Positions 8,328 through 34,303 of a stretch of 64,000 bases of DNA are shown piece after piece. Each line of letters starts with the position of its first letter. Position 1 is the stretch's first letter. Origin of the DNA: Candidatus Omnitrophota bacterium (GTDB lineage: Bacteria > Omnitrophota > Gorgyraeia > Zapsychrales > Fredricksoniimonadaceae); the NCBI GenBank assembly GCA_015232565.1, contig JADFZK010000002.1:64935-128934 (forward strand), given 5' to 3'. The notes beneath the pieces are model-generated. The model saw only the letters and a program-made list of their open reading frames with translations. It was not told the DNA's origin and ran no database searches. A program made the translations under genes and the position numbers.

Positions 8328-8333
8328 ATACCT

Positions 8334-8720: not shown

Positions 8721-8775
8721 ATTGCATTCCGGAACATGCTCAATTACGACTGGATAAAATTACTGGAGGCATGAA

Positions 8776-8994: not shown

Positions 8995-9090
8995 CGTTCT
9001 TAACATCCGTACCTGCGCTATTAAAACGTCATTGCGAGGAGCGAGCCAGTGTTTTCGTGTGGCGAGCGAAGAAGCAATCAACGTAAATAA

Positions 9091-9130
9091 TTCAATGTGT
9101 CCCGGTTTACTTCAATGTGTCCCGGTTTAC
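9091..9130 (+). repeat. Two tandem copies of a 20-bp unit, TTCAATGTGTCCCGGTTTAC
   Basis: Exact duplication at 9091-9110 and 9111-9130. A 17/20 inverted copy (AACCGGGACACATTGAA) is at 26214-26232. Confidence 0.8.
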
Positions 9131-9424
9131 TTAAGCCATTGTCCCGCAATGTTTTGTGTTTCTTCTGGTTTGTCGTAAATCAATCGCAAATCATTCTGAA
9201 AACACCTTGAATTCCTACCCGCTGTATGGTTAGATAGTGCATCTCCATCTATAAATTCTTTTTAAATTCTTATCTACTCAGGGTTGACTTTTTTCATGCC
9301 CTTATTTGAATACACTAAAAGATTTAACTTTTTAATAGCCCAACGCACGACCACTGTGACGTGTAAGCTATTGAACGCCTGCCGGCATGCCTTTTGCACC
9401 CCGTTAATTAATGATTTATTCATG

Positions 9425-9530
9425 TTCGTAGGGGCGGACTTTATGTCCGCCCGGCAATATGACGATTCTTCAATGCGTCAGACAAAAAACGTCATTACGC
9501 CGGGCGGACATAAAGTCCGCCCCTACGGAC
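9425..9530. repeat. REPIN/BIME-like element: two inverted REP-like hairpin units flanking a roughly 45-nt spacer
   Basis: Left arm CGTAGGGGCGGACTTTATGTCCGCCCGGC at 9427-9455. Right arm GCCGGGCGGACATAAAGTCCGCCCCTACG at 9499-9527 is its exact reverse complement. Each arm is itself a hairpin (GGGCGGAC/GTCCGCCC stem) next to a conserved GTAG. The spacer contains its own ATGACG...CGTCAT inverted repeat. Confidence 0.75.
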
Positions 9531-9721
9531 AGATAAGAATTCCATTACTTCACGCAATAGACCAGTTCCGCCCAGGCTTACATGTTGAAATTCCATCGCA
9601 TCGAATTATAGCCAAGGGCGAACCCGGCGCCCCGGTAGAGATTTCATCCCGTCGAACTTTAGCGAAGGTCGGGCCGAGCACCCTTGTGAACTCGCATTTG
9701 GCGTTGCGGGTGGTGGCGGGC

Positions 9722-12700
9722 ATGATATTGGCGGCGGGGGTTTTGCTGTCCTGCTCCACGGCGCAAGCGGCGTCACGGTACTGGGTGGGGGCGAACGGGG
9801 CTAATACCAATGATGCCAATAACTGGGCCGGGGCGGATCCGGCCAGTTGCGCTGGCGGCGGGGCGGGTATTCCCGGAAATTCGGACATCGCGTATTTTGA
9901 CGCGGATTGCGACAGCAATGCCTCGATCAACGCCAACCTGAACGTCGCCGGGATTAACATTGCTTCCGGCTACTCCGGCACGATCACCCAAACCAGCACT
10001 TACACGGTAACTGTCGGCGCCAGTCATTATACCCAGGTTGACGGCACATTTACCGGCGGATCAGGTGCTATCACTAATTCAGGCAATTTCAGTGTAACCG
10101 GCGGCGCATTCACCGCGACCAGCGGCACACTCTCCGTGGCAGGCGATGTCAATCTGAGCGGCGGGACTTATACCCATAATAACGGCATCATTGACCTTAC
10201 CAAAGCCGCGGGCACCCAAACCTTTGATTCCGGCAATCAAACCTTTTACCGGATCAATCATAATGCCGCGGGCACTCTGCAATTGATCAACAATTCCGTA
10301 ACGGCTACAAATTATATTTATCAGACAGCCGGCACCATTGATCTCAATACGTTGAGCATGACCAGCCAGGGTAACGGGCGTGTTCGTTACGGCGGGATCT
10401 TGAATAATGGTACGTTTACAGTATCTGGTTTAACAGGAAACCAGGTTACCATTGATAACAATGCGGTTATTGGAGCCAATATTTACATTACAGCAGGTAG
10501 CATAAATTTTACTGACGCCACTTTTAATGGCGTGGCATTCTTAAATTGTAATGGGACGACTCAAGGTGATTCTGTTAGCTATGGCGGAAGCACCTTTAAT
10601 AGCGACACAACGCTCCAAACCAGTGGGAGTGTGCAATTTTATACCAGTCAGTCCAAGGCGGATACATTTAACGGTCCGCTAACACTTAATAATACAAGTA
10701 ACGGCACGCTTACCATCAACTGGGCAGGCAACAATACTAAATTTAACAACAATATTTATGTTAACAACACCGGCTCCGGTACAGTTTCGGTCGGGGCGTA
10801 TTACGGTTCCAGCATGACCCTGGCTGACGGATATACCATTTCGGTTGGCTCAAGCGGCGTTTCTTCCGGCACTTTAAGTATCAAGGGCTTGTTGCAGGCC
10901 GGCACCACAGCCCAGAATATTGCGCTCACGGGCACCGCAACCATGAACATTTCTTACGGCGGCACCTTTAATGGCGACCTGACGGTTACCGGCGGCACGG
11001 GAAATACTGTTAACACCTACTCCACTGCCACCCGCTTCAACGGCAATCTGAATGTCACGGCTGGCATCATCAACCTGAACGGCGGCACCTTCAATGGGAC
11101 GTCTTATTTCAAGCAGACCGGAACAACGTCTGATAGCGGGGGCAGTAGCGGCAGCTGCACATTTAACAGCACAACCACGATCGAGAATAACGGATCCAGG
11201 GGATTTTCTTTGGGCTATTCTACGACCGACACCTTTAATGGACCACTGACCTTAACAAATACCAGTTCCGGTTATGTGAATGTGGTGTCTGGCACCAGCG
11301 GGACCGTTTTTAATAACGACATTTTCTTTAATAATACCGGCGCAGGAACAACCTCAATCGGCAATTACAATGGCACCAGGACTTCAACGCTGGCGGATGG
11401 CCATTCTTTGTCGATAGGCACTACGGGTTTTTCCAGCGGGACTCTGGCTATTCGTGGTTTAACGCAGGTGGGTTCGACGGGTTCGACCTTGGATCTCACC
11501 GGCACATCTTCGCTTGTTATGAATTATGCCAATACATTTAATGGGCCGTTAACGATCAGTACACCTGTGTTCAACCTGGGGCGTTCAACATTTAATGGCC
11601 CGGTAACGATCACAAAGACCGGGCTGGCAGGTTCTTATACGTATACCGATGGAGGCGACACCTTCAATAGCACGTTCACTTTTAATCAGAACGGAACAGG
11701 AAGCGGCGGTGGTGCTACCTCGGCATATCAGTATCTTGGAAATAACGGTCTTTATGAAACATTTAATGGAGATGTTACCTTTAACATCTTAAACAATTCG
11801 GATATTGGCCTAAATCAAACAGGTTATAAATTCAATGGCAATCTGATTGTGAATAGCTCAGGGTCCGGGAATATTTATATTTATAACTCTACTTTAGCAA
11901 CAGGGAAGACGATTTCTGTTGGAACAGGATATACAGGCGGAGAATTAAGGTTGCAGGGGTTTAATCAGGTCGGGGCAACGGCCCAGAATTTAACAATGGG
12001 TGGGACATCTATATTAACCTTGGGAACAGGTACAACATTTAACGGAGATACGACGTTTAGTGTTTATCAAACCACGGCGACTTCGGTTACATTTAATGGG
12101 GCGACAACATTTGAAGCAACGAAGTATTGGCGAATTTACGGATCAACTTTTAATGGTCCAGCCACAATGAATAATCCCAGTACTAATGATTGGTCCGGGT
12201 TTCAGAACACCGCGACCACGTTTAATAATGATGTAACATTTACCACTACTGGAAATCAAAGTTCCTATGTCGCTTTTGGTGTAAACACTATCTTTAATGG
12301 TAACGTTACTGGGGCAAATCGGGTGGTTTGGGGTAATGGGGGTATCCCCGTCTTTAGTAAGACTTCCGGGGTACAAACGTTGGATACTGCGAACATCGCT
12401 TTCTCAAACCTGACGCATTCCGGTGCGGGTGCGTTGCAATTAACAGGCAATAACTTAAGAATGACCAATGGTACTGCTCTTATTAATTCGGCAGGCACGC
12501 TAGACCTTAATGGCCGGAACATTACGGCCGTGTCGACGACGTTTACACTCACCAACTCCGGCGGTAATATTCAGCTTATCAATACCGAAACCACCAACAA
12601 TTTCACCCAGTACACGTCCAACGGCACCTGGACGTATGTGGGCAATGGCACCGCGACCACGCGCACGATCAAGGATTTCGGCGCTACGGATTATTTTAAC

Positions 12701-15700
12701 CTTTCGATCAATGCAACAGGCGCTACGCCGGATGTGTTTCAGATCACTTCTCCGTTAAATCTGGTAGGCGCCTTGCGGGTGCAAACACCATTTACACCCG
12801 GCACCTATTTGGTTACGCTCTCGGGGGCCACGGCCAGTTATACGTCCACGAATATTGATATTTCCAAGACCACCTGGACAGGCGGGTCTTTGAATATCCA
12901 ATCCGACCTGGATCAAACCCTGCCTTCGGGAGAGACGTATGGAACGTTGCAGTTGGGGCGTTTCTCAGGCACGGGCGGGACGATCTTTAACATGGGGTCC
13001 ACCATCGAGGGGAACTGGACAGTGGATGCGGATGCCACGGTAAACCTGACCGGGGACCTGGTGATCAGCGGGAGTGCCACCATCAACGGCCGGGTGAATA
13101 CGCAAGGCTGGAACCTGACAATTGCCGGAACACTCGACATGAACGGCACTCTGGACGCCACCCGCGGCGCCACGGCCAGCACCATTACGCTCAGCGGCAG
13201 TGCAGATTTTACCGGCGGCACCTTCACACGGGATAATTCGGTCCTGCTCTTTAACGGCACCGGCACCAAAACGCTCAAGTCCGCCAGCAACACTTTTAAC
13301 ACCCTGCAAGTCAATAACGCGGGGCTGACACTCTCCATGCAGGATTCACTCTTGGTCGGCGGCGACCTGACACTCACAGCTGGCACACTGGACGTAACCG
13401 CATCGAATTATGCGATTTCGGCGGCGGGCACCTGGACCAATGCGGGCGGCACCTTCACGCCGCGCAACGGCACGGTCACACTCAACGGCGCCAGTCAGCG
13501 GATCAACGGGACAAACACGTTTTACAATCTGCAAAAGAATGTCACCACGGCCGGTACGCTCACTTTTGAATCCGGCGCATCCCAGACGATCAGCAATGCC
13601 TTGACGTTAACCGGTCAATCCGGTGCGATATTAACCCTGGCCTCATCGTCGGGTGGCAGTTACTGGAATGTTAATCCGGCGGGCACGCACACGTTAAGTT
13701 ATTTAAGTGTCAGTGATTCGAACAATACGGGGGCTGACATCAACACAGCGGGGTTGAATATTGCCGATGGCGGCCATAATGTGGGCTGGACTTTTGTAGC
13801 CAACGGCACCTGGACGGGCGGGGGGGCCGATAATAACTGGTCGACTCCCGGCAACTGGAGCAGTGGCGTTCCTGCCACTTCCGATGTGGTTGTTTTCGAT
13901 ACAACCAGCACCAAGAGTTGTATTGTTGATATTCCAGCTACTGTTGCGGGGTTGAACATGGCAACCGGCTTCACCGGCACGATCACGGTTTCTAACGGGT
14001 TTACGATTAATGGTGACGCCACCTTGAACGCGGGGGATTTTAACGCTGCCGGTGCCAGCACGCTCGACATTAACGGATCGCTGGCGATCATCAGTTCGGA
14101 TTTTACCGCGCCCACCAATGCGGTCATGTCGATATCGAAATCCCTCACTATCGACTCAACGGCTTCGTGGAACTTCAGCGGGTCTGGCACCCTGTTCTTT
14201 GACGCCTCGGGCACTACCAAGACTATAACAACGAACAGTAAACAACTTCAGAATGTACGGTTCGATGCCTCTTACGCAGGGTCTACCGGCACGATCTGGA
14301 CCCTGCAGGATAATTTTACCGCCTACTCAATTAATGTGGCCACTACGCTGGCCAATGCGTCACTGGTGGATAACGGCAAGACGGTTACAGTGAACAGCCC
14401 GACGGCCGCAAATATCACCATTAATACCAGTGCAGTTAATATAGCGCCCTCCACCGGCACCTGGGTAATGGCAGCCAACGGGACGGTTTCGAACACTGTG
14501 CAGGGGTTTGCGATCTTTGAAGCCAGCGCCGGGGTTACGGTAACAATTTCGGGAACATGCGTGTTCAAAAAAGGTGTTTTAGGGGCGAACGCTACCGTTA
14601 ACGGGGGGCAGTTCTATGCATATTCACCTACGGCCAATGACTATTTTGATTTTGCGGCGGGATCAAATGTGTCAAACATTCTTACGTTATATGGCGGCGC
14701 CAATCGAACACAAAAATCAATTAATATTACTGGCCGGTTCTTCGACTTCTCCTACGCTAATTCATCTGTCATCATGAGCGGTGACTGGACAGTAGGGAAT
14801 ATGCAGCTTTCCCCATCCGCTGGTACAAATTCTGACACCGAGGCTGAAGCCCGTGTTTTTGATACCAATAGCAAGAATTTAACGGCGAACGGCTGGGTGA
14901 TCCTTGGTGCCGCAGGATCTTTAAGCCGGCAGGGCCAGCAAAAATTATTACTCCGCAACGGGACACACGTTATTACCGGAGCCTTGTATGTTGTCCAGGG
15001 AGCAGTGCCATCGGCGGGGTTGGTGATCCTGGATGATTCCGCCGGCTCGGTAGCGCTCGAAGTAGATGGCAACTGGACTATGAAAGACATGAAAGTAACT
15101 TTGGGTTCGGCCTCGGTGATATCAAAGGGGAATATGGATTATTCCAGCATGTACATCAGCAGTGAGTCCACCTGGGGCATGAACGCCGGAACCTCTACCA
15201 TTACGCTCTCGGGCGCGGCTAACCAGACGATCACTGCGGCCAACAGCGTGGACAATACCGGTGCAGCTATCGCGGAATTCTATAACATGGTGATCAATAA
15301 AACCGGCGCTGCCGGCACCGATAAAGTGATCATTTCATCGCCCGCTAACACGCTTGACCTCACTGTAACCAACAGCGCGCGGGTTATTGATGGCATCCTG
15401 GACTTGGCCACTAACAGCGCAGTGATGACCATCGGCGTGGCTCTGACAATCGACACTGCCGGGTCCATGACCGTGGGTGCGGCCTCCACCTTGACCATCG
15501 CCGGTACCGCGGCAACCTATAAATCAAGCGATATATTCTCGATCGCTAACACCACCTGGGCGTCCACGGCCACATTGAACTTGCAATCCGATCTCGACCA
15601 GACTTTACCGTCAGATGAGACCTACGGCAACCTGCAGCTGGGCCGCTACTCGGATTCTGGGGGGACGATTTATACCATGGGTTCCACTATCGCCGGGGAC

Positions 15701-18700
15701 TGGACAGTAGATTCTGACGCCACTGTGGAATTATCGGGCAATCTGTTTGTAACCGGCGATGTGACCATCAACGGACAGGTGAATACCAACGGGTTTAATA
15801 TGACTGTTGGCGGTAACTTAGATATCGCATCCGGCGCTACACTTGACGCCAGTCAGGATACCGGCTCCAGTAAGTCTGCTATTACGGTTACCGGATATTT
15901 TCATCCGACCGGCAATTTTGTTACTGACAGCACTACCCTTGCCATCGGTGCGGGCACTACCGCTATGAAATCCCCCTGGAGCCTGGGCAGTATCACGGTA
16001 GCCTCCGGTGCTGTTTTAACTACCGACGGATATAACTTTACCACTGCCACAGATGTTACGGTGCCCGGCACCCTGAACGCGGCCAGCGGAACAGGCGGCG
16101 CCAGTACGCTCACTGTGGGCGGAGGAGTTAATCTGGCCAATGGTGCCTTTACCGGTTCCGATTCAACTCTGATCCTGAATGCCAGTTCCGGTGCACAGTC
16201 ATTTGTAACCAATAATCAAACGTTCAATGTGATCCGGGTGACCGGCGCGGGTTCCTGGACTGTGACCGGGGGCTTAACCACCAGCAGTGATTTCACCATG
16301 ACGGCAGGCACCTTCAACGCCGCCAGCGCCGGCACCATGGACGTGAACGGGTCATTGGCGGTCACCGGGGCTTTCATTGCTCCGTCGGCGGTAATGTCGG
16401 TGGCCGGGTCGCTCACTATCGATGCCGCCACCACCTGGACCAGTTCTTCCGGCATCCTGAATTTTGATGCCAGCGGCTCCGGCAAGACCATTACCACCAA
16501 CGGCAAAAATCTTTACAATGCCTATTTCACCGGCTCCGGCGACTGGACTTTTAACGACAGCACCACGATCACCAACGATTTCACTCTTGCCGCCGGTACA
16601 CTAAAAGGCGGGACTTCCACTATTAGCGTTGGCCGGAACTGGGATTCCTCGGGAGCAACGGCTACATTTACATACAATCAGTCTACGGTTGACCTTACCG
16701 GAACCGGGCAAATGAAACTGCCTTATAATTCCTATTTTTATAACCTTAAGATCGCGGCACCCGGGCAGACAACCACCGTGCTCGATCCCACCAGCCTGAG
16801 AAACTTTTACATTTATGGCACTCTTACCCTGGGCTCCGGAACGCTGACTCATTCCACTGGCGTCTACGGATTATTATTTATACTTCGGGGAACCGTTACT
16901 CCGCTGGTTTATAACAATACAAATTTCGTTTACGGCAATATGTTGATCTACAACACTCAGGAAGACGGCTACACCTTTACCGTGCCGGCTATATCGACCG
17001 CGTCGAATCTGGCCGTTTCATTTACTCCCGCGGCAACTGTTACCTACAACCTTGGCGGCGCTTTGAATATCGGCGCCTTTGATGCTTATCAACAAACGGC
17101 TGGCAAGACATTGACCTACAATACAAATGGCTTTCCCATAACAACGTCAAACTTTGTCCGGGCTGTTGCCGGAAATGGTTCCATGGCTTATGCCCGAGGT
17201 GCCACGATTGCCAATTTCGCGAACAGCACAGTTACCGACGGGTGGGATGCCGGCACAACCTGGAGTAGTTACGCATATTCAGGAACGGTTAATCTTGAGT
17301 CTTCTGTCTGGGCTGTGTCCTGGGACTGGACCATGCAATCCTCCAATGGCACCATCACAGTCAATCCCGGCACATCCACAGTAAAGCTTTACAACACATG
17401 TAAATTGTGGTCGGGAGGAACTTCGTTTAACAATCTGCAGATCCTGGGCAATAGAACGCCCTACGATAACGTGTCGGTACTTGGTTCGTTGTACCTCAAG
17501 TCGTTTTCTTTTAACTGCTCCACCTATAACGCGGCCGTTACGGTGGCAGGCGCGGTTACGATCGATGCCGGATTCGCGTTCACCGCCGGAACCGCACCAT
17601 TTAATATTTCAGGCCCGACAGCCGCTTATACCAATGTTAATATCGCCGCTACCACCTGGACGGGCGGCACTTTGAACATACAGACCGATCTCGACCAGAC
17701 CCTGCCGTCGGGGGAGACTTATGGCAACCTGCAACTGGGCCGCTACTCAGGAAGTGGCGGGACGATATTCACTATGGGCTCGACCATTACTGGCAACTGG
17801 ACAGTGGATGCGGATGCCACGGTGGAACTATCGGGCAATTTAACTATCTCGGGGAATGCCACTATTAACGGCCGGGTGAATACCAACGGCTGGAACTTAA
17901 CTGTGGGCGGCAACTTTGATATTGCCTCCGGCGGCACACTTGACGCCAGCCAGGATACCGGCTCAACCAAATCGCGGATCGCGGTCACGGGTTACTTTCA
18001 TCCGCTGGGGAATTTCATCTCGGACAATACCACTCTTTTGATCGGCGCCGGCACTTCTACCATGAGATCCGCCTGGAGCCTGGGCAGTATCACCATTGCC
18101 GCCGGGTCCACTCTAGTTACTGACGGCTACAACTTCACCACCACCTCCGACGTAACCGTGCCCGGCACCCTCAACGCCGCCAACGGGGCCGGAGGCTCAA
18201 GCACTCTGGCCATCGGCGGCAGTGTGAACTTTACCGGCGGCACATTTACCAATACCCTTTCGACAGTTATTCTTAATTCGACCACCACGGCTCAAACCAT
18301 ACTTACGGCCGACAACCAGTACAATGTGCTAACCGTGTCCAATTCGGCGGCGGGCGGAGTGACCTTCTCGGATGCCTGGACGGTGGTGGACTTTACCGAT
18401 ATTACCGCCGGGTCAAAATTGTATTTCGAGAACGGCATAACTTATACAATATCCGGCACGCTCACATTAAACGGCACCTCGGGGAATCTTATAACACTCA
18501 ACACCCACGACGGCTTAACCACCAACTTCATACTTAAACCCGCGGGAGGTGTGCCCACGGTTAATTATTTAAGCGTACGGCGAGCGGATGCCCAAACTAA
18601 TGACATTACTTGTGTAAATTGCAACGACGCCGGCTACAACAACTCCGGCACCGGAAATAAACTCTGGGACTTCGACAACAGCGCAGAAAACGGCGGCTTA

Positions 18701-18724
18701 ATCTTCGGCGCCATGATGTTCTAA
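9722..18724 (+). CDS. Giant (about 3000 aa) secreted repeat protein; a predicted beta-helix, adhesin-like surface protein rich in FxxN motifs
   Basis: Single uninterrupted ORF. A signal-peptide-like start is present (LALRVVAGMILAAGVLLSCSTAQA|AS), reached by ATG at 9722 or TTG at 9698. The ORF-track start at 9284 is an artefact of read-through across the REPIN region. Composition is heavily biased to T/G/N/S/A. Dozens of TFNG/FNGx (FxxN) motifs are present, together with long internal near-duplications. No recognisable C-terminal sorting motif. Confidence 0.8.
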   Translation: MILAAGVLLSCSTAQAASRYWVGANGANTNDANNWAGADPASCAGGGAGIPGNSDIAYFDADCDSNASINANLNVAGINIASGYSGTITQTSTYTVTVGASHYTQVDGTFTGGSGAITNSGNFSVTGGAFTATSGTLSVAGDVNLSGGTYTHNNGIIDLTKAAGTQTFDSGNQTFYRINHNAAGTLQLINNSVTATNYIYQTAGTIDLNTLSMTSQGNGRVRYGGILNNGTFTVSGLTGNQVTIDNNAVIGANIYITAGSINFTDATFNGVAFLNCNGTTQGDSVSYGGSTFNSDTTLQTSGSVQFYTSQSKADTFNGPLTLNNTSNGTLTINWAGNNTKFNNNIYVNNTGSGTVSVGAYYGSSMTLADGYTISVGSSGVSSGTLSIKGLLQAGTTAQNIALTGTATMNISYGGTFNGDLTVTGGTGNTVNTYSTATRFNGNLNVTAGIINLNGGTFNGTSYFKQTGTTSDSGGSSGSCTFNSTTTIENNGSRGFSLGYSTTDTFNGPLTLTNTSSGYVNVVSGTSGTVFNNDIFFNNTGAGTTSIGNYNGTRTSTLADGHSLSIGTTGFSSGTLAIRGLTQVGSTGSTLDLTGTSSLVMNYANTFNGPLTISTPVFNLGRSTFNGPVTITKTGLAGSYTYTDGGDTFNSTFTFNQNGTGSGGGATSAYQYLGNNGLYETFNGDVTFNILNNSDIGLNQTGYKFNGNLIVNSSGSGNIYIYNSTLATGKTISVGTGYTGGELRLQGFNQVGATAQNLTMGGTSILTLGTGTTFNGDTTFSVYQTTATSVTFNGATTFEATKYWRIYGSTFNGPATMNNPSTNDWSGFQNTATTFNNDVTFTTTGNQSSYVAFGVNTIFNGNVTGANRVVWGNGGIPVFSKTSGVQTLDTANIAFSNLTHSGAGALQLTGNNLRMTNGTALINSAGTLDLNGRNITAVSTTFTLTNSGGNIQLINTETTNNFTQYTSNGTWTYVGNGTATTRTIKDFGATDYFNLSINATGATPDVFQITSPLNLVGALRVQTPFTPGTYLVTLSGATASYTSTNIDISKTTWTGGSLNIQSDLDQTLPSGETYGTLQLGRFSGTGGTIFNMGSTIEGNWTVDADATVNLTGDLVISGSATINGRVNTQGWNLTIAGTLDMNGTLDATRGATASTITLSGSADFTGGTFTRDNSVLLFNGTGTKTLKSASNTFNTLQVNNAGLTLSMQDSLLVGGDLTLTAGTLDVTASNYAISAAGTWTNAGGTFTPRNGTVTLNGASQRINGTNTFYNLQKNVTTAGTLTFESGASQTISNALTLTGQSGAILTLASSSGGSYWNVNPAGTHTLSYLSVSDSNNTGADINTAGLNIADGGHNVGWTFVANGTWTGGGADNNWSTPGNWSSGVPATSDVVVFDTTSTKSCIVDIPATVAGLNMATGFTGTITVSNGFTINGDATLNAGDFNAAGASTLDINGSLAIISSDFTAPTNAVMSISKSLTIDSTASWNFSGSGTLFFDASGTTKTITTNSKQLQNVRFDASYAGSTGTIWTLQDNFTAYSINVATTLANASLVDNGKTVTVNSPTAANITINTSAVNIAPSTGTWVMAANGTVSNTVQGFAIFEASAGVTVTISGTCVFKKGVLGANATVNGGQFYAYSPTANDYFDFAAGSNVSNILTLYGGANRTQKSINITGRFFDFSYANSSVIMSGDWTVGNMQLSPSAGTNSDTEAEARVFDTNSKNLTANGWVILGAAGSLSRQGQQKLLLRNGTHVITGALYVVQGAVPSAGLVILDDSAGSVALEVDGNWTMKDMKVTLGSASVISKGNMDYSSMYISSESTWGMNAGTSTITLSGAANQTITAANSVDNTGAAIAEFYNMVINKTGAAGTDKVIISSPANTLDLTVTNSARVIDGILDLATNSAVMTIGVALTIDTAGSMTVGAASTLTIAGTAATYKSSDIFSIANTTWASTATLNLQSDLDQTLPSDETYGNLQLGRYSDSGGTIYTMGSTIAGDWTVDSDATVELSGNLFVTGDVTINGQVNTNGFNMTVGGNLDIASGATLDASQDTGSSKSAITVTGYFHPTGNFVTDSTTLAIGAGTTAMKSPWSLGSITVASGAVLTTDGYNFTTATDVTVPGTLNAASGTGGASTLTVGGGVNLANGAFTGSDSTLILNASSGAQSFVTNNQTFNVIRVTGAGSWTVTGGLTTSSDFTMTAGTFNAASAGTMDVNGSLAVTGAFIAPSAVMSVAGSLTIDAATTWTSSSGILNFDASGSGKTITTNGKNLYNAYFTGSGDWTFNDSTTITNDFTLAAGTLKGGTSTISVGRNWDSSGATATFTYNQSTVDLTGTGQMKLPYNSYFYNLKIAAPGQTTTVLDPTSLRNFYIYGTLTLGSGTLTHSTGVYGLLFILRGTVTPLVYNNTNFVYGNMLIYNTQEDGYTFTVPAISTASNLAVSFTPAATVTYNLGGALNIGAFDAYQQTAGKTLTYNTNGFPITTSNFVRAVAGNGSMAYARGATIANFANSTVTDGWDAGTTWSSYAYSGTVNLESSVWAVSWDWTMQSSNGTITVNPGTSTVKLYNTCKLWSGGTSFNNLQILGNRTPYDNVSVLGSLYLKSFSFNCSTYNAAVTVAGAVTIDAGFAFTAGTAPFNISGPTAAYTNVNIAATTWTGGTLNIQTDLDQTLPSGETYGNLQLGRYSGSGGTIFTMGSTITGNWTVDADATVELSGNLTISGNATINGRVNTNGWNLTVGGNFDIASGGTLDASQDTGSTKSRIAVTGYFHPLGNFISDNTTLLIGAGTSTMRSAWSLGSITIAAGSTLVTDGYNFTTTSDVTVPGTLNAANGAGGSSTLAIGGSVNFTGGTFTNTLSTVILNSTTTAQTILTADNQYNVLTVSNSAAGGVTFSDAWTVVDFTDITAGSKLYFENGITYTISGTLTLNGTSGNLITLNTHDGLTTNFILKPAGGVPTVNYLSVRRADAQTNDITCVNCNDAGYNNSGTGNKLWDFDNSAENGGLIFGAMMF

Positions 18725-18737
18725 AAAATGGAGATGT

Positions 18738-19157
18738 ATGAAAAAAGCACAAAAGTTTCTCGTGGGGTTGTTGTTCTTAATAATGGCTGCCGGTCAAGCC
18801 TGGGCGCAAACAGCCTTGCTGGCGGTGCCCTATCGGTTTACGGCGGATTCGGGTGAGGAAGTGGAACTGGTGGTCTATTACACAGCCGGGTATAAAGCGG
18901 TGGAACACTATGGTTTTAATACAACTGTTGTACACCCCAATGGCAATATTACCATGGCGCTAACGGCTAACGAAGCGGGTGGCAAGATCAAACTGGCTCT
19001 CAAAGTCCTGGATAACAAAGTAACCGATACCACTGTCACCTCCGCGGGTTTACCCGCTGGCTCAAAAGTCCTGAGCATTAACAGCCGCAGTGGTGAAAAA
19101 CTATCATTCACCTTCACCGGCCCGAAGCCAACAGTCACATCAGACCGGATTAAATAA
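18738..19157 (+). CDS. Small secreted protein of unknown function, co-transcribed with the giant repeat protein
   Basis: 139 aa. RBS GGAG at 18728. Signal peptide MKKAQKFLVGLLFLIMAAGQAWA|QT. Starts 14 nt after the giant gene's stop and is followed by a hairpin. Confidence 0.6.
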   Translation: MKKAQKFLVGLLFLIMAAGQAWAQTALLAVPYRFTADSGEEVELVVYYTAGYKAVEHYGFNTTVVHPNGNITMALTANEAGGKIKLALKVLDNKVTDTTVTSAGLPAGSKVLSINSRSGEKLSFTFTGPKPTVTSDRIK

Positions 19158-19163
19158 AAAGAA

Positions 19164-19190
19164 AGAGCCGCGATTGCTCGCGGCTTTCCG
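19164..19190 (+). terminator. Stem-loop (AGCCGCGA-TTGC-TCGCGGCT) downstream of the small secreted protein gene; a weak intrinsic-terminator candidate
   Basis: Perfect 8-bp GC-rich stem starting 7 nt after the stop codon. The trailing sequence is TTTCC rather than a long U-tract, hence low confidence. Confidence 0.4.
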
Positions 19191-19293
19191 GTAACATATA
19201 TAACCGGGACATTATATTTCTTCCAGCTCGTTGAACCATTTCAATGACTGCTTTTCAAATTAATATAATGTTCCGGTTTACATCGTCTAATTG

Positions 19294-19322
19294 CCGGGCC
19301 GAGACAAGCTCGGCCGCTACGG
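19294..19322. repeat. Solo REP-like hairpin unit, CCGGGCCGAGACAAGCTCGGCCGCTACGG
   Basis: 7-bp stem GGCCGAG/CTCGGCC with loop ACAAG, adjacent to CTACG. It matches the right arm of the element at 30689-30717 (CCGGGCCGACACAAGGTCGGCCCCTACGC) with paired compensatory G/C swaps in the stem. Confidence 0.65.
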
Positions 19323-19366: not shown

Positions 19367-19564
19367 ATTTATGGCTGACTTTGTGTAAGAAAACTCATGA
19401 ATTATGGTTGACTTTGTGTAAGGAAACGCCTGATTTATGGTTGACTTTGTGCAAGAAAACTCCTGATTTAGGGTTGACTTTGTGTAAAAAAACGCCTTAA
19501 TTATGGTTGACTTTGTGCACATATTCGAACGATCTTGGGCTGACTTTGTGCACAAAACAAAAGG
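19367..19564 (+). repeat. Six tandem 33-bp direct repeats with the core TTATGGTTGACTTTGTG(T/C)AAG
   Basis: Units start at 19367, 19400, 19433, 19466, 19499 and 19532. The period is exactly 33 bp. Units 1-5 are about 80-90% identical and unit 6 is degenerate. The array lies in the intergenic region immediately upstream of the thiC promoter. Confidence 0.85.
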
Positions 19565-19618: not shown

Positions 19619-21169
<1,551 letters not shown>

Positions 21170-30302: not shown

Positions 30303-31163
30303 ATGGGTTTAACCAATTCAGCCTCGAACGCGATATTTAATAACATTGCCTGGCGTTATGACCGGGTGAACACGGTGTTGTCTTTTGGTTTGCATGAAGT
30401 CTGGCGCGCTCGCCTGGCGCGGGCTTTTCCCGCCGGCACCCGCTCTCTTTTAGACCTCGCCTGCGGGACAGGTGCGATTCCCTTGGCGTTCTTGCGTTAC
30501 CGTACTGATGTCACCGACCTGACCGGCCTGGATCTTTCCGTGCAAATGCTGAAAATAGCCAGTCAACGACTCCTTAATAATGGCAATCATCACTTGTTTA
30601 GCAAATCAGGAGATTTAATCAGGTGCGTAGGGGCGGACTTTATGTCCGCCCTGCGGAGTGGTGATAATAGCTCAGTTTGCCTCTCGTGCCGGGCCGACAC
30701 AAGGTCGGCCCCTACGCTCGACAAATCTCTCGATCTGCTACACAATTACAGCCCACTAGTCAGGTTGATCGAGGGTGACGCGCTTAATCTAACTTTTAAA
30801 GACGATTCTTTCGACGCTGTTACGGTGGGTTTTGCCCTACGCAATATCCCGGACGTAATTAAATTATTAACCTCCGCTTACCGAGTGCTGAAGCCGGGCG
30901 GCTATTTTGGCATATTGGAATTCTCGCGCCCCAAAGCCCTCATTACTCGAGCTTTCTATTGGTTATACTTAAGTTGTATTGTGCCGATTGTGGGCCTGTT
31001 AATTACCGGGAACTGGGCGGCTTATTACCACCTGGGTAAAAGCATTAAACAATTTCCCGAACCCGAGCGCTTTCACCGGATGCTCGCTCAATCCGGATTT
31101 AAGGAAATAACCGCATATCCGCTGGCATTGGGTGCGGTCACTTTGTACATGGCGAAAAAATGA
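30303..31163 (+). CDS. menG: Demethylmenaquinone/ubiquinone C-methyltransferase MenG/UbiE carrying an in-frame insertion of roughly 40 aa from a REPIN-like element
   Basis: UbiE hallmarks YDRVNTVLSFGLHEVWR, SAM motif LDLACGTG and GDALNLTFKDDSFDAVTVGFALRNIPD. The protein is 286 aa against about 240 typical; the extra segment (CVGADFMSALRSGDNSSVCLSCRADTRSAPTLDKS...) is encoded by the palindromic element at 30625-30720. Confidence 0.8.
   Translation: MGLTNSASNAIFNNIAWRYDRVNTVLSFGLHEVWRARLARAFPAGTRSLLDLACGTGAIPLAFLRYRTDVTDLTGLDLSVQMLKIASQRLLNNGNHHLFSKSGDLIRCVGADFMSALRSGDNSSVCLSCRADTRSAPTLDKSLDLLHNYSPLVRLIEGDALNLTFKDDSFDAVTVGFALRNIPDVIKLLTSAYRVLKPGGYFGILEFSRPKALITRAFYWLYLSCIVPIVGLLITGNWAAYYHLGKSIKQFPEPERFHRMLAQSGFKEITAYPLALGAVTLYMAKK
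30625..30720. repeat. REPIN/BIME-like palindromic element inserted within the menG coding sequence
   Basis: Left arm GCGTAGGGGCGGACTTTATGTCCGCCC at 30625-30651 is identical over 24 nt to the left arm at 9427-9452. Right arm CCGGGCCGACACAAGGTCGGCCCCTACGC at 30689-30717 is a variant hairpin with compensatory stem changes. The reading frame is kept open through the element. Confidence 0.75.
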
Positions 31164-32515
31164 ATTCCGATCCGGCCAAAACATTAAAACGCAATTTATT
31201 AAAAGAATGCGCCAAAGCAGTTGCTGCCGGGCACTATCCGCTGGTCGTACGAGCCCAGGCCGAATGCACCAATGATTTCGACCCTTTATCCTGGCTGGCT
31301 TCACAAAAAGAATACCCTAAATTCTTTTGGCAGAATGCCGAAGGCGGCCGCGTCATGGCCTATGCCGGGGCGGCGCATATCTTTACCAATTCCGACCGTG
31401 CTTGTGCCGCGGATCAATGGGATTCAGTGCGCCGCTGGCTGGAACGCGTTCCCGGCTTGCGTTGCTGGTGCGGCGGGGCGTTTAATAACCGGATAACCGG
31501 GCAGGAATGGTCGGATTTTGATGCCTGGGCGATGTACATACCCAAGTTCGGCATTGAACGCGACCCCGCCAATGCCAAATGGCATCTGGTCTGTCAACTG
31601 ATCCTGCCCGAGAACGATGACGGGACTCTTAACGAAGCCGTCAGCCTGCTGGAGCGCCTGTCTTATAGTGAAGACCACTCCTTATTTACGCCGGATATCC
31701 TGGCGTTGGAAGAATCTCCTTCTTATGAAGACTGGCAAAAAACTGTCAACCATACGCTCGAGACTATCGCCCGGAATGAAATCTCTAAAGTTGTACTGGC
31801 CCGTTGTATGCGGCTAACACTCGATCACGCTGTTGCGCCCGAGGCGGTAATGGCCAGATTATTGCAAAACTCTAACCAGGGTTTTATGTGTTTACCCGCG
31901 CCGCTGACCGGGTTCTTGAGTGTTTCCCCGGAACTGCTTTACCATCGCCGCCGCGACCGGCTGGATACTTTTGCTATCGCCGGAACCCGCCCAAGGGGGC
32001 ATAATGAGCTCGAGGACCGACTGTTAAAAGCCGAATTAGCCGGATCCGTTAAGGACAAACTGGAACACCAGCAGGTCGTGGATATGCTGGCGGGAAAACT
32101 GGCCCAATTGTGCATTCTGGCCAAGCTGGACGGTAAAAGCACCCTGCTGGAACTGCCTAACCAAAGGCATTTCTACCAGCGTTTACGCGGCCGTTTGCTG
32201 GAAGGCGTTACCGATGAATTAATAATCAGAGCCTTGCACCCCACACCGGCCGTGGGCGGAGTGCCCGCCGATAAAGCGTTAAAACTTATTGCTTCTGCCG
32301 AGCCCTTCGATCGGGGCTGGTTCGCAGGTACGGTAGGGTGGCTCAGCCGCGATGAAGCCCAGATGGCCGTTGGCATCCGTTCCTGCCTTATCCGTCAGGA
32401 TCAGTGGTATGTTTATGGCGGGGCGGGTATAGTGGATGGCTCCCGGGCTCTGGCGGAATGGGAAGAGATCGGTTTAAAAATGAAGAATATCCTGGATGTG
32501 CTCCATGCCCGCTGA
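31160..32515 (+). CDS. menF: Isochorismate synthase (menaquinone-specific, MenF)
   Basis: 451 aa chorismate-binding enzyme with the C-terminal core GGVPADKALKLIASAEPFDRGWFAGTVGWL...AVGIRS. It overlaps menG by 4 nt and precedes menD. Confidence 0.85.
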   Translation: MNSDPAKTLKRNLLKECAKAVAAGHYPLVVRAQAECTNDFDPLSWLASQKEYPKFFWQNAEGGRVMAYAGAAHIFTNSDRACAADQWDSVRRWLERVPGLRCWCGGAFNNRITGQEWSDFDAWAMYIPKFGIERDPANAKWHLVCQLILPENDDGTLNEAVSLLERLSYSEDHSLFTPDILALEESPSYEDWQKTVNHTLETIARNEISKVVLARCMRLTLDHAVAPEAVMARLLQNSNQGFMCLPAPLTGFLSVSPELLYHRRRDRLDTFAIAGTRPRGHNELEDRLLKAELAGSVKDKLEHQQVVDMLAGKLAQLCILAKLDGKSTLLELPNQRHFYQRLRGRLLEGVTDELIIRALHPTPAVGGVPADKALKLIASAEPFDRGWFAGTVGWLSRDEAQMAVGIRSCLIRQDQWYVYGGAGIVDGSRALAEWEEIGLKMKNILDVLHAR

Positions 32516-34214
32516 ACAGCTATTACCCCAGGTTTTACGGCAACCGAATATTAATTTCTTATGGGCGGCTCTGCTGGTGGAAGAACTGCGCCGCCAGGGG
32601 GTAGGCTGTTTCTTTCTGGCACCAGGATCACGATCGGCTCCGTTAATATTCGCGGTCGGTAAAGATCCCCGGATCCATTCGCAAGTCCATTTTGATGAAC
32701 GCGCCCTGGCTTTTATGGCCTGTGGTTACGCCGCCGCATCGGGAAAACCGGCAGTCCTCATATGCACTTCCGGCACCGCCGCCGCCAATTTTTTACCGGG
32801 ACTGATCGAAGCTTCCAAGAAGAAACTGCCGCTGATCGTGTTAACCGCTGATCGCCCGCCGGAATTACAAAAGACCGGAGCGGCCCAAAGCATCGAACAA
32901 ACCGGTTTATTCAGCACCTACACCCGCTGGTCGGCCGAACTGCCTTGCCCGACCATGGAGATCAACCCCGAATACGTTCTGACCACCGCGGCCCAGGCAG
33001 TGTCCCGGGCCAAAGGCGAATTGCCCGGGCCGGTGCACATTAATGTCTTGTTTCGCGAACCATTGTCACCGGTTAAACAGTCCTCCGGCCTGGCACGTTA
33101 TACGACGTCCATAAAGAGTTGGGCGTTAAGCAACAAGCCGTTTACCAGTTACTTTTCCCGGACGGCTCAATTATCCGAAGACGCTCTAAAACATGCGGCA
33201 ACCCGCATCCACCAGATCAAGAACGGGTTGGTCCTGGCCGGCAAATTGGGCTCCCAGGCCGATCGTCAGGCGGTACTGACTTTTGCCGAAAAAACCGGCT
33301 GGCCGATACTGGCCGATATTACCTCCGGCTTGCGCCTGGGGCCGCAACATAAGAACGTTATAAGTTATTTCGACCAAGCCCTGACCAGAACTCTGCCATC
33401 TTTGGGTATTGATGGCGTAGTTCATTTTGGCGGCAGAATGACTTCCAAGAATTGCTATGAATTGCTAAAGAAGTCGCACTTAAACGATTATTTGATGATC
33501 CTGGCGCACCCTTTACGCAGTGACCCTTTGCATAAAGTTACCGCCCGATTCAATATCAGCCCGGCAATTTTTGTGGATCAAATATTCTATTTACTTGCAC
33601 AACGCACGCCTTCTAAATCTTTAGACGCTTTGCAAAAGGCGAATAGTGCGGCCAGCCGCCAGATCGACCAGAACCTCGCTCGTTCAGCTCTTTGTGAGCC
33701 GGGCATTGCGCGCGCGATATCAAAAATTATCCCCGCTGGACAGGGCTTGTTCCTGAGCAACAGTATGCCGGTAAGAGATATGGATTCCTACGCCGCCAGC
33801 GATGGCAATGCGGTAACTGTGGGCGCCAACCGGGGCGCGAACGGGATAGACGGCATCATCGCTTCGGGAATCGGATTCGCCGCCGGCCTTAAGCAAACCA
33901 CTACGCTTGTGATCGGCGACCTGGCCTTTCTTTACGACCTGAATTCCCTGGCTTTGCTCAAGACCGCGGAACAGAAACTAATTATCGTGCTAATAAACAA
34001 CGACGGAGGGAAAATATTCTCCCGTTTGGCCGGAGCTGAACGCTCGGCCTTCTTTGCCAAATATTTTACCGCTTCTCACGGCCTTAATTTTCGTTCGGCG
34101 GCTAATCTTTTTGCCCTGCGTTATTACGTTCCTGGCTCCACCAAGGCATTTGTAAAAGACTATGCCCGCGCTTTAAAAGCCCGGGGCTCTTCCTTGATAG
34201 AAGTGATCATATAA
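32496..34214 (+). CDS. menD: SEPHCHC synthase MenD (ThDP-dependent)
   Basis: 572 aa. The N-terminal WAALLVEELRRQGVGCFFLAPGSRSAPL matches MenD. The ThDP-binding GDLAFLYDLNSL...NNDGG motif is present. Confidence 0.85.
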   Translation: MCSMPAEQLLPQVLRQPNINFLWAALLVEELRRQGVGCFFLAPGSRSAPLIFAVGKDPRIHSQVHFDERALAFMACGYAAASGKPAVLICTSGTAAANFLPGLIEASKKKLPLIVLTADRPPELQKTGAAQSIEQTGLFSTYTRWSAELPCPTMEINPEYVLTTAAQAVSRAKGELPGPVHINVLFREPLSPVKQSSGLARYTTSIKSWALSNKPFTSYFSRTAQLSEDALKHAATRIHQIKNGLVLAGKLGSQADRQAVLTFAEKTGWPILADITSGLRLGPQHKNVISYFDQALTRTLPSLGIDGVVHFGGRMTSKNCYELLKKSHLNDYLMILAHPLRSDPLHKVTARFNISPAIFVDQIFYLLAQRTPSKSLDALQKANSAASRQIDQNLARSALCEPGIARAISKIIPAGQGLFLSNSMPVRDMDSYAASDGNAVTVGANRGANGIDGIIASGIGFAAGLKQTTTLVIGDLAFLYDLNSLALLKTAEQKLIIVLINNDGGKIFSRLAGAERSAFFAKYFTASHGLNFRSAANLFALRYYVPGSTKAFVKDYARALKARGSSLIEVII

Positions 34215-34303
34215 ACAAAACCATCAGCGCCCTTTCTTTTGGCCCGCGATTTTGCTAGAGTAATTTTAATTTGCAACTGGAGCCGGGCCCAATAAGAGAC
34301 TTT

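What the first reader, a model, noticed from the sequence alone, without database searches (positions are those of the whole stretch)
30625..30720. REPIN-like element inserted in-frame inside the menG/ubiE methyltransferase gene, with compensatory stem mutations
Seen in sequence: the menG ORF reads straight through a 96-nt palindromic element.
- The left arm is identical over 24 nt to the element at 9427 (CGTAGGGGCGGACTTTATGTCCGCCC).
- The right arm (GGGCCGACACAAGGTCGGCCCCTACG) is a variant of the inverted unit (GGGCGGACATAAAGTCCGCCCCTACG).
- Both stem strands have changed in a base-pair-preserving way (CGGAC/GTCCG to CCGAC/GTCGG).

The insertion adds about 40 aa (VGADFMSALRSGDNSSVCLSCRADTRSAPTLDKS...) between the post-I motif and motif II of the class I methyltransferase fold. 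That is a surface loop position.

The open reading frame and the covariation together argue that the element is selected both as an RNA/DNA structure and as a tolerated protein insert. The alternative is that menG is a cryptic pseudogene.
Basis: partly seen in the sequence, partly recalled or inferred. Interest (0 to 1): 0.65.

Follow-up and report, generated by a model that had tools for sequence, protein, structure and literature searches.

The report
Palindromic REP repeat inserted inside menG
A 152-base palindromic repeat, made of two GTAG-headed REP hairpins with palindromic flanks, sits in frame inside a menaquinone methyltransferase gene of an uncultured Omnitrophota bacterium and adds about 55 amino acids to a loop; it is real, but it is another example of a phenomenon already described in other bacteria.

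Summary
MenG/UbiE (30303-31163) is 286 aa. Its closest orthologues (69% identical, same gene order) are 230-232 aa. The extra 54-56 aa (about nt 30588-30755) correspond to a 152-nt imperfect palindrome at 30594-30745. Its core is a head-outward pair of GTAG-headed REP hairpins.

The left REP is identical to both REPs of an intergenic dimer at 9413-9541. The right REP is a different subtype with a swapped G-C pair. That "compensatory" difference did not arise here. The same two subtypes are paired in a metagenome contig (L059). The right subtype occurs identically elsewhere, and this base pair covaries across the whole family.

The palindrome is stop-free in one frame per orientation. Those same two frames (VGAD..SA, RAD..SAPT) are used by family members lying in frame in IleRS, an S9 peptidase and a permease in other organisms. 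An open frame is therefore weak evidence of special selection.

MenG keeps all 48 residues invariant in its orthologues and sits in a near-complete men pathway. The insert falls in a loop between a helix and a strand. It is probably a tolerated selfish insertion. This matches intragenic GTAG REPs (Di Nocera 2013) and Rickettsia RPEs: a new member of a known kind.

The parts
30303..31163 (+). menG/ubiE (demethylmenaquinone / quinol C-methyltransferase) ORF, 286 aa, carrying the insert. Identical to NCBI protein MBF0386424.1 from a Candidatus Omnitrophota MAG.
   Evidence: PF01209 at 2.4e-53 and TIGR01934 at 205.8 bits (cutoff 158), both split into two stretches, 1-96 and 151/153-286. Identity of the protein.
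30588..30755 (+). Net extra coding segment relative to the closest orthologues: 56 aa (168 nt) against the 230-aa proteins, 54 aa against the 232-aa proteins. Boundaries are uncertain by about 10 nt. It encodes HHLFSKSGDLIRCVGADFMSALRSGDNSSVCLSCRADTRSAPTLDKSLDLLHNYSP.
   Evidence: Protein alignment A1, coordinates, DNA alignment with the syntenic orthologue L124. AF2 pLDDT is 46-59 here and above 89 in the flanking core.
30594..30745 (.). 152-nt imperfect palindrome, the inserted element as a whole.
   Evidence: Inverted repeats I1 and I2. Single long hairpin at -78.9 kcal/mol, z = -8.1. Open in frames +0 and -0 only.
30627..30651 (+). Left REP (type A): GTAG head, then 8-bp stem GGGCGGAC/GTCCGCCC with loop TTTAT.
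   Evidence: Exact copies at 9428-9452 (+) and 9502-9526 (-). Hairpin I4.
30691..30715 (-). Right REP (type B): GTAG head, then 8-bp stem GGGCCGAC/GTCGGCCC with loop CTTGT.
   Evidence: hairpin I5. Identical 25-mer in L059, L042 and L100.
30652..30690 (.). 39-nt spacer between the two REPs. It begins TGCGGAGTGGTGATAA, resembling the spacer starts of related dimers (L070 GCGGTGATAAC, L016 GGCGTGATGAC).
   Evidence: Unit comparison. blastn: window 30627-30721 against L070 28-116, 74% over 98 nt.
30612..30626 (+). 5' extension of the REP unit, GATTTAATCAGGTGC, shared with the 9413-9427 copy. Its mirror on the right side is GCTCGACAAATC at 30716-30727.
   Evidence: 37 of 40 identity between 30612-30651 and 9413-9452. 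Unit comparison.
30594..30611 (.). Outermost left arm, TTGTTTAGCAAATCAGGA. It pairs with 30728-30745 and has no other copy in the data at hand.
30728..30745 (.). Outermost right arm, TCTCGATCTGCTACACAA. It pairs with 30594-30611 and has no other copy in the data at hand.
9413..9541 (.). Second member of the family in the window: a head-outward homodimer of two type-A REPs with a 49-nt spacer. It lies upstream of the probable true start (signal peptide near nt 9700) of the 3146-aa ORF.
   Evidence: (I2).
19296..19320 (-). Solo REP variant, GTAGCGGCCGAG-CTTGT-CTCGGCCC, intergenic. The sequence after it (GGCAATTAGACGAT) resembles the spacer start of the 9427 element.
31160..32515 (+). menF (isochorismate synthase). 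Its ATG overlaps the menG stop (ATGA). menD follows at 32496-34214. This is operon context for the gene carrying the insert.

Best explanation
**What it is.** A non-autonomous palindromic repeat of the GTAG-headed REP class became inserted into the menG coding sequence of this Omnitrophota lineage. It is a head-outward heterodimer, that is, a REPIN-like doublet, with about 33 nt of palindromic flank on each side.

**Why it survived.**
- In this phase the element has no stop codon.
- The net addition is a multiple of three (162-168 nt).
- It landed in the loop between helix B and strand 3 of the Rossmann-like methyltransferase fold. That loop lies on the side of the sheet away from the SAM site and already varies in length among orthologues.

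MenG is therefore most likely still made and active, carrying a roughly 55-aa, probably disordered excursion. The insert itself is selfish or neutral passenger DNA.

**The two arms.** They differ because the dimer was built from two REP subtypes that circulate in the family. The hairpin of each REP is kept by family-level constraint, presumably recognition by the cognate HUH tyrosine transposase (RAYT/TnpA-REP) acting on single-stranded DNA.

**Shown versus inferred.**
- Shown: the insert relative to syntenic orthologues; family membership of the REPs; family-wide covariation; frame properties; conservation of the MenG core.
- Inferred: mobilisation by a RAYT; retained enzyme activity; neutrality of the insert.
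For: - **It is an insert.** The orthologues are 230-232 aa and 69% identical outside a single 54-56-aa gap. The relative's locus has the same gene order (bioB-like, trxB, menG, menF, menD) with no insert and no REP.
- **It belongs to a repeat family.** The 25-mer occurs 3 times exactly in the window, against 0 expected.
- **The hairpin covaries across the family.** 53 of 74 GTAGGGGC heads not selected by the scan pattern form perfect 8-bp hairpins, using more than 20 different stems. The covariation score is 0.547 against 0.14 in shuffles, with 0 of 500 shuffles as high.
- **The same A+B heterodimer exists elsewhere**, in L059.
- **Frames.** Only +0 and -0 are open. Family members lie in frame in IleRS, an S9 peptidase and a MacB-like permease, giving the same peptides VGADxxSAP and RADxxSAPT.
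- **The gene looks intact.** 48 of 48 invariant and 98 of 103 near-invariant columns are kept, and the five changes are conservative. The menG stop overlaps the menF start. menF, menD, menB, menA, menC, menE and a thioesterase are all present.
- **The fold is modelled intact.** The core matches Coq5 (4obw) with a target-normalised TM-score of 0.84. The insert has low confidence and lies between helix 80-98 and strand 153-157. P0005 has a natural 11-aa extension at the same loop.
- **Literature.** GTAG REPs, head-outward heterodimers with different stems, sub-families with alternative complementary stem residues and intragenic REP dimers are described in PMC3733652.
Against: - No RAYT gene (PF01797) was found among the 48 window ORFs scanned against Pfam in addition to menG, nor among recurring ORF families in the metagenome loci. 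The window is only 64 kb of the genome.
- The outermost 18 nt of each arm and a further 10-16 nt of the insert match no other copy. The unit that actually moved is therefore not defined.
- The left REP is 100% identical to another copy. This suggests a recent event, or homogenisation, so retention may not yet have been tested by selection.
- No data on activity, expression or read support exist.
Confidence: 0.72

Rival explanations
1. The insertion has inactivated or crippled MenG. The intact frame reflects only a recent event, so this is a pseudogene in waiting. The cell would use demethylmenaquinone, or a second methyltransferase encoded elsewhere.
For: - The left REP is 25 of 25 identical to the copies at 9428 and 9526, consistent with a young insertion.
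- The score against the UbiE equivalog model NF001244 falls below its cutoff, 204.9 against 216.
- One insertion in three would be in frame by chance, because the element is open in one frame per orientation.
- A -79 kcal/mol hairpin inside the mRNA could hinder translation.
Against: - All 48 invariant residues are retained, and there are no frameshifts or stops in the remaining 230 codons.
- The gene heads an overlapping menG-menF-menD unit, and the rest of the pathway is intact.
- The insertion site is a loop of variable length, away from the motifs.
- No second copy was found within the window, although that is weak evidence for the whole genome.
Confidence: 0.12
2. The element is retained because it does something. 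Either it acts as an RNA or DNA structure inside the men operon (a processing site, a translational brake setting the MenG:MenF ratio, or a binding site for a nucleoid protein), or the added peptide gives MenG a new interaction.
For: - The structure is very stable (z = -8.1).
- REP dimers are proposed to act as RNA elements, and heterodimers to resist cleavage (PMC3733652).
- The insert sits at the head of a translationally coupled operon.
Against: - No orthologue carries anything at this site except one unrelated 11-aa extension.
- No protein in 1.84 billion representatives carries a related peptide. The only hit is a chance match to a repeat protein.
- No terminator-like site was found, and one promoter-like match is within chance.
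- Intragenic copies of the family occur in unrelated genes, which argues against a gene-specific role.
Confidence: 0.06
3. The 152-nt palindrome is a conventional MITE, moved by a DDE transposase through its terminal inverted repeats (TTGTTTAGC.../...GCTACACAA). The REP pair is merely cargo or an earlier resident. Alternatively, the REP dimer inserted into an older small palindromic insert, giving nested events.
For: - The outer arms are 19 of 23 complementary and extend well beyond the part shared with the other REP dimer.
- In L016 an IS4-like DDE transposase gene is flanked by about 82-nt inverted REP dimers of the same family.
- REPs are known targets for IS insertion (PMC3733652).
Against: - No target-site duplication is visible at 30593/30746 (inspection).
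- The outer arms have no second copy in the window or in the 120 loci.
- The 15 nt next to GTAG are shared with the 9413 copy, so at least part of the flank belongs to the REP unit.
Confidence: 0.1
4. The insert is an assembly artefact, such as a chimeric join through a repeat in the metagenome assembly.
For: The sequence comes from a MAG. The protein is known from a single contig, and repeats are error-prone in assembly.
Against: - Both flanks continue the same gene in the same frame, with conserved sequence on each side.
- The insert is not a copy of the other element. Its spacer, right arm and outer arms differ.
- An artefact would not be expected to preserve frame and remain free of stops.
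Confidence: 0.03
5. The segment is a lineage-specific protein loop that evolved in place, not an insertion of repeat DNA.
For: The loop varies in length among orthologues; P0005 has +11 aa.
Against: 26 nt are identical, and 37 of 40 similar, to an intergenic repeat 21 kb away. The segment is a 152-nt palindrome. The closest syntenic orthologues lack it.
Confidence: 0.01

Closest known systems
Intragenic GTAG-tagged REPs (Di Nocera, De Gregorio and Rocco 2013, BMC Genomics 14:522; PMC3733652), most numerous in Opitutus terrae (Verrucomicrobia, PVC group)
   Same: - A GTAG tetranucleotide lies next to a 6-9-bp GC-rich stem-loop.
- Dimers with GTAG outside (their 'HH' type) have 20-100-bp spacers.
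- Heterodimers are made of units with different stems.
- Sub-families carry alternative complementary stem residues.
- Units and dimers lie in frame inside genes for known proteins, and are interpreted as tolerated in loops.
   Different: - The host phylum (Omnitrophota) and the target gene (menG/ubiE) were not among their cases, as far as I read.
- Their dimers usually encode 20-30 aa. Here 54-56 aa are added, because the palindrome extends about 33 nt beyond each GTAG.
- I did not check whether this stem (GGGCGGAC) matches one of their 24 numbered families.
REPIN / RAYT system (Bertels and Rainey 2011; TnpA-REP biochemistry in PMC3479197 and PMC8266576)
   Same: Two inverted REPs separated by a short spacer can form one long hairpin. 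They are repeated in the genome, and the GTAG head is required by TnpA-REP in E. coli.
   Different: - No RAYT gene was found in the 64-kb window.
- Only two dimers and one singleton are in view.
- The two dimers differ in spacer and in composition, so replication as a unit is not shown.
Rickettsia palindromic elements (RPE; Ogata et al. 2000 Science 290:347; reviewed in PMC10969869)
   Same: Palindromic elements of about 100-150 bp are inserted in frame into conserved metabolic genes. They add a peptide at positions judged compatible with the fold, and the orthologues lack the insert.
   Different: There is no sequence relationship. RPE-1 is not a GTAG REP dimer, and RPE-4 and RPE-6 belong to the CGTC class. 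Rickettsia has many such insertions, whereas here one is seen in 64 kb.
E. coli BIMEs (Y and Z REP types paired in inverted orientation)
   Same: The dimers are built from two distinct REP subtypes, so the two arms are not perfectly complementary to each other although each arm folds on its own.
   Different: BIMEs are extragenic, and their subtypes differ mainly in loop or bulge length. This statement rests on my own knowledge plus PMC3733652.

Membership tests
GTAG-tagged REP (repetitive extragenic palindrome) | A conserved GTAG tetranucleotide immediately next to the foot of the stem | tested here: met
   GTAG at 30627-30630 (+) and 30712-30715 (-), and likewise at 9428, 9526 and 19320.
GTAG-tagged REP (repetitive extragenic palindrome) | A short GC-rich stem-loop (stem 5-13 bp, loop 2-20 nt) | tested here: met
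   Perfect 8-bp stems with 5-nt loops in both arms (I4 and I5). The DNA fold shows both local hairpins.
GTAG-tagged REP (repetitive extragenic palindrome) | Repeated many times in the genome | tested here: inconclusive
   There are five units in 64 kb: three exact type A, one type B and one variant. The rest of the MAG could not be fetched. The family is abundant in metagenomes.
GTAG-tagged REP (repetitive extragenic palindrome) | Stem maintained by compensatory variation among sub-families | tested here: met
   133 of 134 scan hits are complementary at the free pair. All 4 variable pairs show double-sided changes, and the score is 0.547 against 0.14 with 0 of 500 shuffles as high. Caveat: the rows were partly chosen because they form hairpins.
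REPIN (REP doublet forming hairpin, mobilised by a RAYT) | Two REPs in inverted orientation with a short spacer, able to form one long hairpin | tested here: met
   Arms 30625-30654 and 30688-30717, with 33 nt between them. Long hairpin at -78.9 kcal/mol.
REPIN (REP doublet forming hairpin, mobilised by a RAYT) | A cognate RAYT (Y1/HUH transposase, PF01797) in the genome, typically flanked by the same REPs | not testable with these tools
   None was found among the 48 window ORFs scanned in addition to menG. The 3146-aa ORF was not scanned. No recurrent RAYT-like ORF appeared in the 120 loci.
REPIN (REP doublet forming hairpin, mobilised by a RAYT) | The doublet, not the single REP, is the replicating unit (whole-dimer copies elsewhere) | tested here: inconclusive
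   The two dimers in the window share only the REP plus 15 nt. L059 has the same A+B pairing but a 7-nt spacer. L070 aligns over 98 nt at 74%.
RPE-like in-frame palindromic insert in a conserved gene | Extra in-frame segment absent from orthologues and made of repeat DNA | tested here: met
   gap of 54-56 aa, empty syntenic site; repeat identity.
RPE-like in-frame palindromic insert in a conserved gene | The insert lies at a position compatible with the fold (a surface loop) | tested here: met
   In the AF2 model the insert (96-150, pLDDT 46-59) lies between helix 80-98 and strand 153-157, and the core pLDDT is above 89. The core superposes on Coq5 with TM 0.84. That the loop lies opposite the SAM site is inferred from class I methyltransferase topology, not measured.
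MITE derived from a DDE-type insertion sequence | Terminal inverted repeats plus a flanking target-site duplication | tested here: not met
   The inverted termini exist trivially, because the element is a palindrome. No direct repeat flanks 30594 and 30745 (inspection).
MenG/UbiE C-methyltransferase | Match to the family profiles above the curated cutoffs | tested here: met
   PF01209 at 181 bits (cutoff 20.1). TIGR01934 at 205.8 bits (cutoff 158.35). The equivalog NF001244 scores 204.9, below its cutoff of 216, because the match is split by the insert.
MenG/UbiE C-methyltransferase | Conserved residues and pathway context | tested here: met
   48 of 48 invariant columns are kept. menF and menD lie downstream. 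menB, menA, menC, menE and a thioesterase lie at 54.6-59.2 kb. Catalytic activity was not tested.

The most novel reading that the evidence does not exclude
The 152-nt palindrome could be more than a passenger. One version is that it belongs to a REPIN lineage whose full unit, REP pair plus flanks, is kept stop-free in its mirrored frame, so that it can colonise coding sequence as Rickettsia RPEs do. The other version is that its very stable hairpin inside the first gene of the menG-menF-menD unit has been co-opted to tune expression of the menaquinone pathway. The evidence does not exclude either version. It consists of the unexplained outer arms, the open frame across the whole palindrome, an open frame across the 9413-9541 copy too, and the recurrent in-frame VGAD..SAP copies in other taxa.
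Probability: 0.07. Interest if true: 0.55.

Novelty: new member of a known kind. Interest (0 to 1): 0.25.

Why it matters
This is a clean natural example of selfish palindromic DNA living inside an essential-pathway enzyme gene without breaking it, in a phylum (Omnitrophota) known only from metagenomes. Three practical points follow.

- **Annotation.** The insert pushes the UbiE equivalog score below its cutoff, so NCBI names the protein only "class I SAM-dependent methyltransferase".
- **Reading arm differences.** Arm-to-arm "compensatory" differences in REP dimers should be read as subtype pairing, not as local evolution.
- **Family spread.** The GTAGGGGC-type REP family is widespread in environmental metagenomes and repeatedly lies in frame in housekeeping genes, using the same two reading frames.

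None of this changes current understanding of REPs or of MenG.

Tried and rejected
- **Extending beyond the window.** The look-up of encoding contigs with two window proteins and with P0001 returned "not on record". REP copy number, a RAYT and a second menG in the MAG could therefore not be checked.
- **Genome-collection scan.** I spent the single scan on the protein. It returned only distant relatives of 26-43% identity, so the MAG itself could not be scanned for REPs.
- **Searching for the insert peptide.** The word-indexed search found nothing. The exhaustive HMMER search of 1.84 billion representatives gave one hit at E = 5e-4, a repeat-rich 892-aa protein that matches by chance.
- **Looking for a RAYT.** I clustered ORFs from the 120 REP-bearing loci. 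The recurrent families were ABC ATPases, cupins, LemA, PadR and similar housekeeping proteins.
- **Rfam.** Nothing in the window reached a gathering score. In 30450-30900 there were only sub-threshold miRNA-precursor matches, which any long hairpin gives.
- **Terminators and promoters in and around the insert.** No terminator-like site was found, and one promoter-like match is within chance.
- **Target-site duplication.** None was seen. A CAAT at 30584 and 30743 is asymmetric and unconvincing.
- **Outer arms as decayed REPs.** I considered this because the right arm reads GTAGCAGATCGAG against GTAGCGGCCGAG at 19320. I rejected it because neither outer arm forms a hairpin.
- **Outer arms as an inverted copy of native menG sequence (template switching).** Rejected, because the orthologues have no counterpart for either arm.
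Full report
**Observation.** The ORF at 30303-31163 (+) reads without a stop through a palindromic stretch. It matches the UbiE/MenG family: PF01209 at 2.4e-53 and TIGR01934 at 205.8 bits against a cutoff of 158. Every profile match is split into residues 1-96 and 151/153-286.

The string CGTAGGGGCGGACTTTATGTCCGCCC at 30626-30651 is identical to 9427-9452. The 25-mer from GTAG occurs three times in the window (9428+, 9526-, 30627+), against none in 100 shuffles. The right arm at 30691-30715 (-) reads GTAGGGGCCGACCTTGTGTCGGCCC. Each arm is a perfect 8-bp hairpin with a 5-nt loop.

**Size of the insert.** Fourteen aligned orthologues show a single gap. The closest three (P0002-P0004, 67-69% identical, 230 aa) lack 56 residues, and the 232-aa orthologues lack 54. 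In nucleotides the extra DNA is roughly 30588-30755.

The palindrome is also longer than reported. Beyond the REP pair, 30594-30616 and 30723-30745 are 19 of 23 complementary. The stretch 30594-30745 folds as one hairpin: RNA -78.9 kcal/mol, z = -8.1; DNA z = -5.3, with the two REPs as local hairpins. The 152-nt palindrome thus accounts for 90-94% of the extra DNA. The remaining 10-16 nt fall within the alignment uncertainty of a variable loop. I saw no target-site duplication.

**It is an insertion.** The nearest orthologue lies in a perfectly syntenic locus: a gene for a roughly 600-aa protein on the opposite strand, a bioB-like radical-SAM gene, trxB, menG, menF, menD, then a response regulator, citrate synthase, M17 peptidase, fumarase, PilZ and PntB. 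It has a 230-aa MenG and no REP in 8 kb. The source is a Candidatus Omnitrophota MAG. NCBI annotates the protein, MBF0386424.1, as intact.

- Of 134 hits, 133 carry complementary letters at the two free S positions.
- In those loci, 74 further GTAGGGGC heads do not match the scan pattern. Of these, 53 form perfect 8-bp hairpins with more than 20 different stem variants. The remaining 21 equal the number of chance 8-mers expected in about 1.4 Mb, by my estimate.
- On 20 distinct variants, all four variable base pairs show double-sided changes. The covariation score is 0.547 against 0.14 in shuffles, with 0 of 500 as high. The pair that distinguishes the two arms in menG is C-G in 10 variants and G-C in 9. 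These rows were partly chosen because they are hairpins.
- The units carry the GTAG head that defines the GTAG class of REPs. The menG element is a dimer with GTAG outside, made of two unlike units.

Di Nocera et al. 2013 (PMC3733652) describe exactly these features: GTAG REPs, 'HH' dimers with 20-100-bp spacers, homodimers and heterodimers including dimers of units with different stems, and sub-families with alternative complementary stem residues.

**The "compensatory mutations".** The metagenome contig L059 carries, at 59-117, a dimer whose left unit is 25 of 25 identical to the menG left unit. Its right unit differs from the menG right unit at one base. A solo copy at L059:234 is 25 of 25 identical to the menG right unit, as are copies in L042 and L100. 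The right arm is therefore an established subtype, and the A+B pairing is inherited. The base-pair-preserving difference is real, but it predates this insertion. It says something about the family, where the hairpin is constrained, and not about selection at this locus. In the long-hairpin form, the subtype difference actually introduces mismatches between the arms. The cited paper suggests that such heterodimers may escape hairpin-cleaving nucleases.

**The open reading frame.** The 152-nt palindrome is stop-free in exactly two of six frames, +0 and -0, which mirror each other as expected for a palindrome. An insertion in either orientation stays open in one phase of three.

The same two frames are used by family members lying inside conserved genes in other organisms:
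- VGADASSAP in isoleucyl-tRNA synthetase (L091, L004);
- the same peptide in an S9 peptidase, at the same site in two orthologues (L008, L098);
- RADGASAPT in a MacB-like permease (L103).

The menG insert reads VGADFMSA ... RADTRSAPT. Intragenic REP dimers are already reported, with the highest number of GTAG cases in Opitutus terrae, another member of the PVC group. In-frame palindromic inserts are the hallmark of Rickettsia RPEs.

**Is MenG still functional?**
- The protein keeps all 48 columns that are invariant in the 13 orthologues. It keeps 98 of 103 columns conserved in at least 11 of 13, and the five differences are conservative.
- The stop of menG overlaps the start of menF (ATGA).
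- The window also encodes menD, menB, menA, menC, menE and a thioesterase.
- In the AlphaFold model (mean pLDDT 82), the core is confident and superposes on yeast Coq5 with a target-normalised TM-score of 0.84. Residues 96-150 have pLDDT 46-59 and lie between helix 80-98 and strand 153-157.
- By the known topology of class I methyltransferases, a helix-to-strand loop lies at the edge of the sheet opposite the SAM site. This is inference, because I could not measure it.
- One orthologue (P0005) has a natural 11-aa extension in this loop.

I conclude that MenG is probably active and the insert tolerated. A recent inactivating event cannot be excluded, especially since the left REP is still identical to other copies.

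**Mechanism.** The best-supported reading is a non-autonomous GTAG-REP dimer that reached menG by the route used by REPs and REPINs. That route is generally ascribed to RAYT/TnpA-REP acting on single-stranded hairpins (PMC3479197 and PMC8266576, listed). Only a stop-free, frame-preserving insertion in a permissive loop would have escaped purifying selection.

The RAYT step is inferred. No PF01797 protein is encoded by the 48 window ORFs scanned in addition to menG, but 64 kb is a small sample of the genome.

**What remains unexplained.** The part shared with the other dimer in the window begins at GATTT (30612), 15 nt outside GTAG. The outermost 18 nt of each arm have no other copy in the window or in the 120 loci. 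Either full-length elements in this genome are about 152 nt, or the dimer sits within an older small palindromic insert. The rest of the MAG would settle this.

**Verdict.** The feature is real and correctly spotted, but larger than described. The argument for in-situ selection does not hold. It is a new member of a known kind: an intragenic GTAG REP dimer, analogous to RPEs. Interest is modest.

Noticed in passing
window 19369-19557: A tandem array of a 33-nt unit, TTATGGTTGACTTTGTGTAAGAAAACGCCTGAA (4.5-5.7 copies, 81-87% matches), lies directly upstream of thiC (19631-21166). No TPP riboswitch, and no Rfam family at all, reaches gathering score anywhere in the window.
   Followed up: partly
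window 59194-59438: A 245-nt element with 51-nt terminal inverted repeats (84% complementary) and a second inner inverted repeat (59249-59272 / 59349-59372). It lies between the thioesterase gene that ends the men cluster and a response-regulator gene, and looks MITE-like.
   Followed up: no
window about 8300-19320: In the syntenic relative, a PP-loop (ATP_bind_3) gene is directly followed by thiC. In the window about 11 kb lie between them: a PIN-domain gene, a 3146-aa ORF with an internal signal-peptide-like start, and a 139-aa ORF. This block is bounded by the REP dimer at 9413-9541 and the solo REP at 19296-19320.
   Followed up: partly
window 9091-9132 and 19202-19278: An AACCGGGACA-containing motif occurs as a perfect 20-nt tandem duplication at 9091-9132 and as a 17-nt inverted repeat at 19202/19262. 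Each lies within a few hundred bases upstream of a REP element.
   Followed up: no
L016 1-1729 (metagenome contig OEIU01031482.1): An IS4-like DDE transposase gene (PF01609, 446 aa) is flanked on both sides by about 82-nt REP dimers of the same GTAGGGGCCGAC family in inverted orientation. The inner REPs lack the GTAG head. Either this is an IS with REP-dimer ends, or an IS landed inside a REP cluster.
   Followed up: partly
L091 2154-2178, L004 2409-2433, L008 2296-2320, L098 5407-5431 and 6076-6100, L103 2931-2955: Single REPs of the same family lie in frame in isoleucyl-tRNA synthetase, an S9 peptidase (same site in two orthologues, plus a second site in one of them) and a MacB-like permease. 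They encode VGADASSAP or RADGASAPT.
   Followed up: partly
L040 180-427, L083 6427-7289, L093 5284-5690: Clusters of REPs occur at regular spacing. In L040, two alternating REP types repeat every 97-99 nt; L083 and L093 also hold runs of closely spaced REPs.
   Followed up: no
window 34214-34271, compared with the P0002 contig: The relative has a surE gene between menD and the HD-domain response regulator. The window has only a 56-nt gap there.
   Followed up: no
window 9284-9541: The REP dimer at 9413-9541 is also stop-free in the frame of the downstream giant ORF and encodes the same VGADFMSA peptide. The mechanical ORF therefore starts upstream of it. The signal-peptide-like segment (MILAAGVLLSCSTAQA) suggests that the true start lies downstream and that the element is extragenic.
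   Followed up: partly
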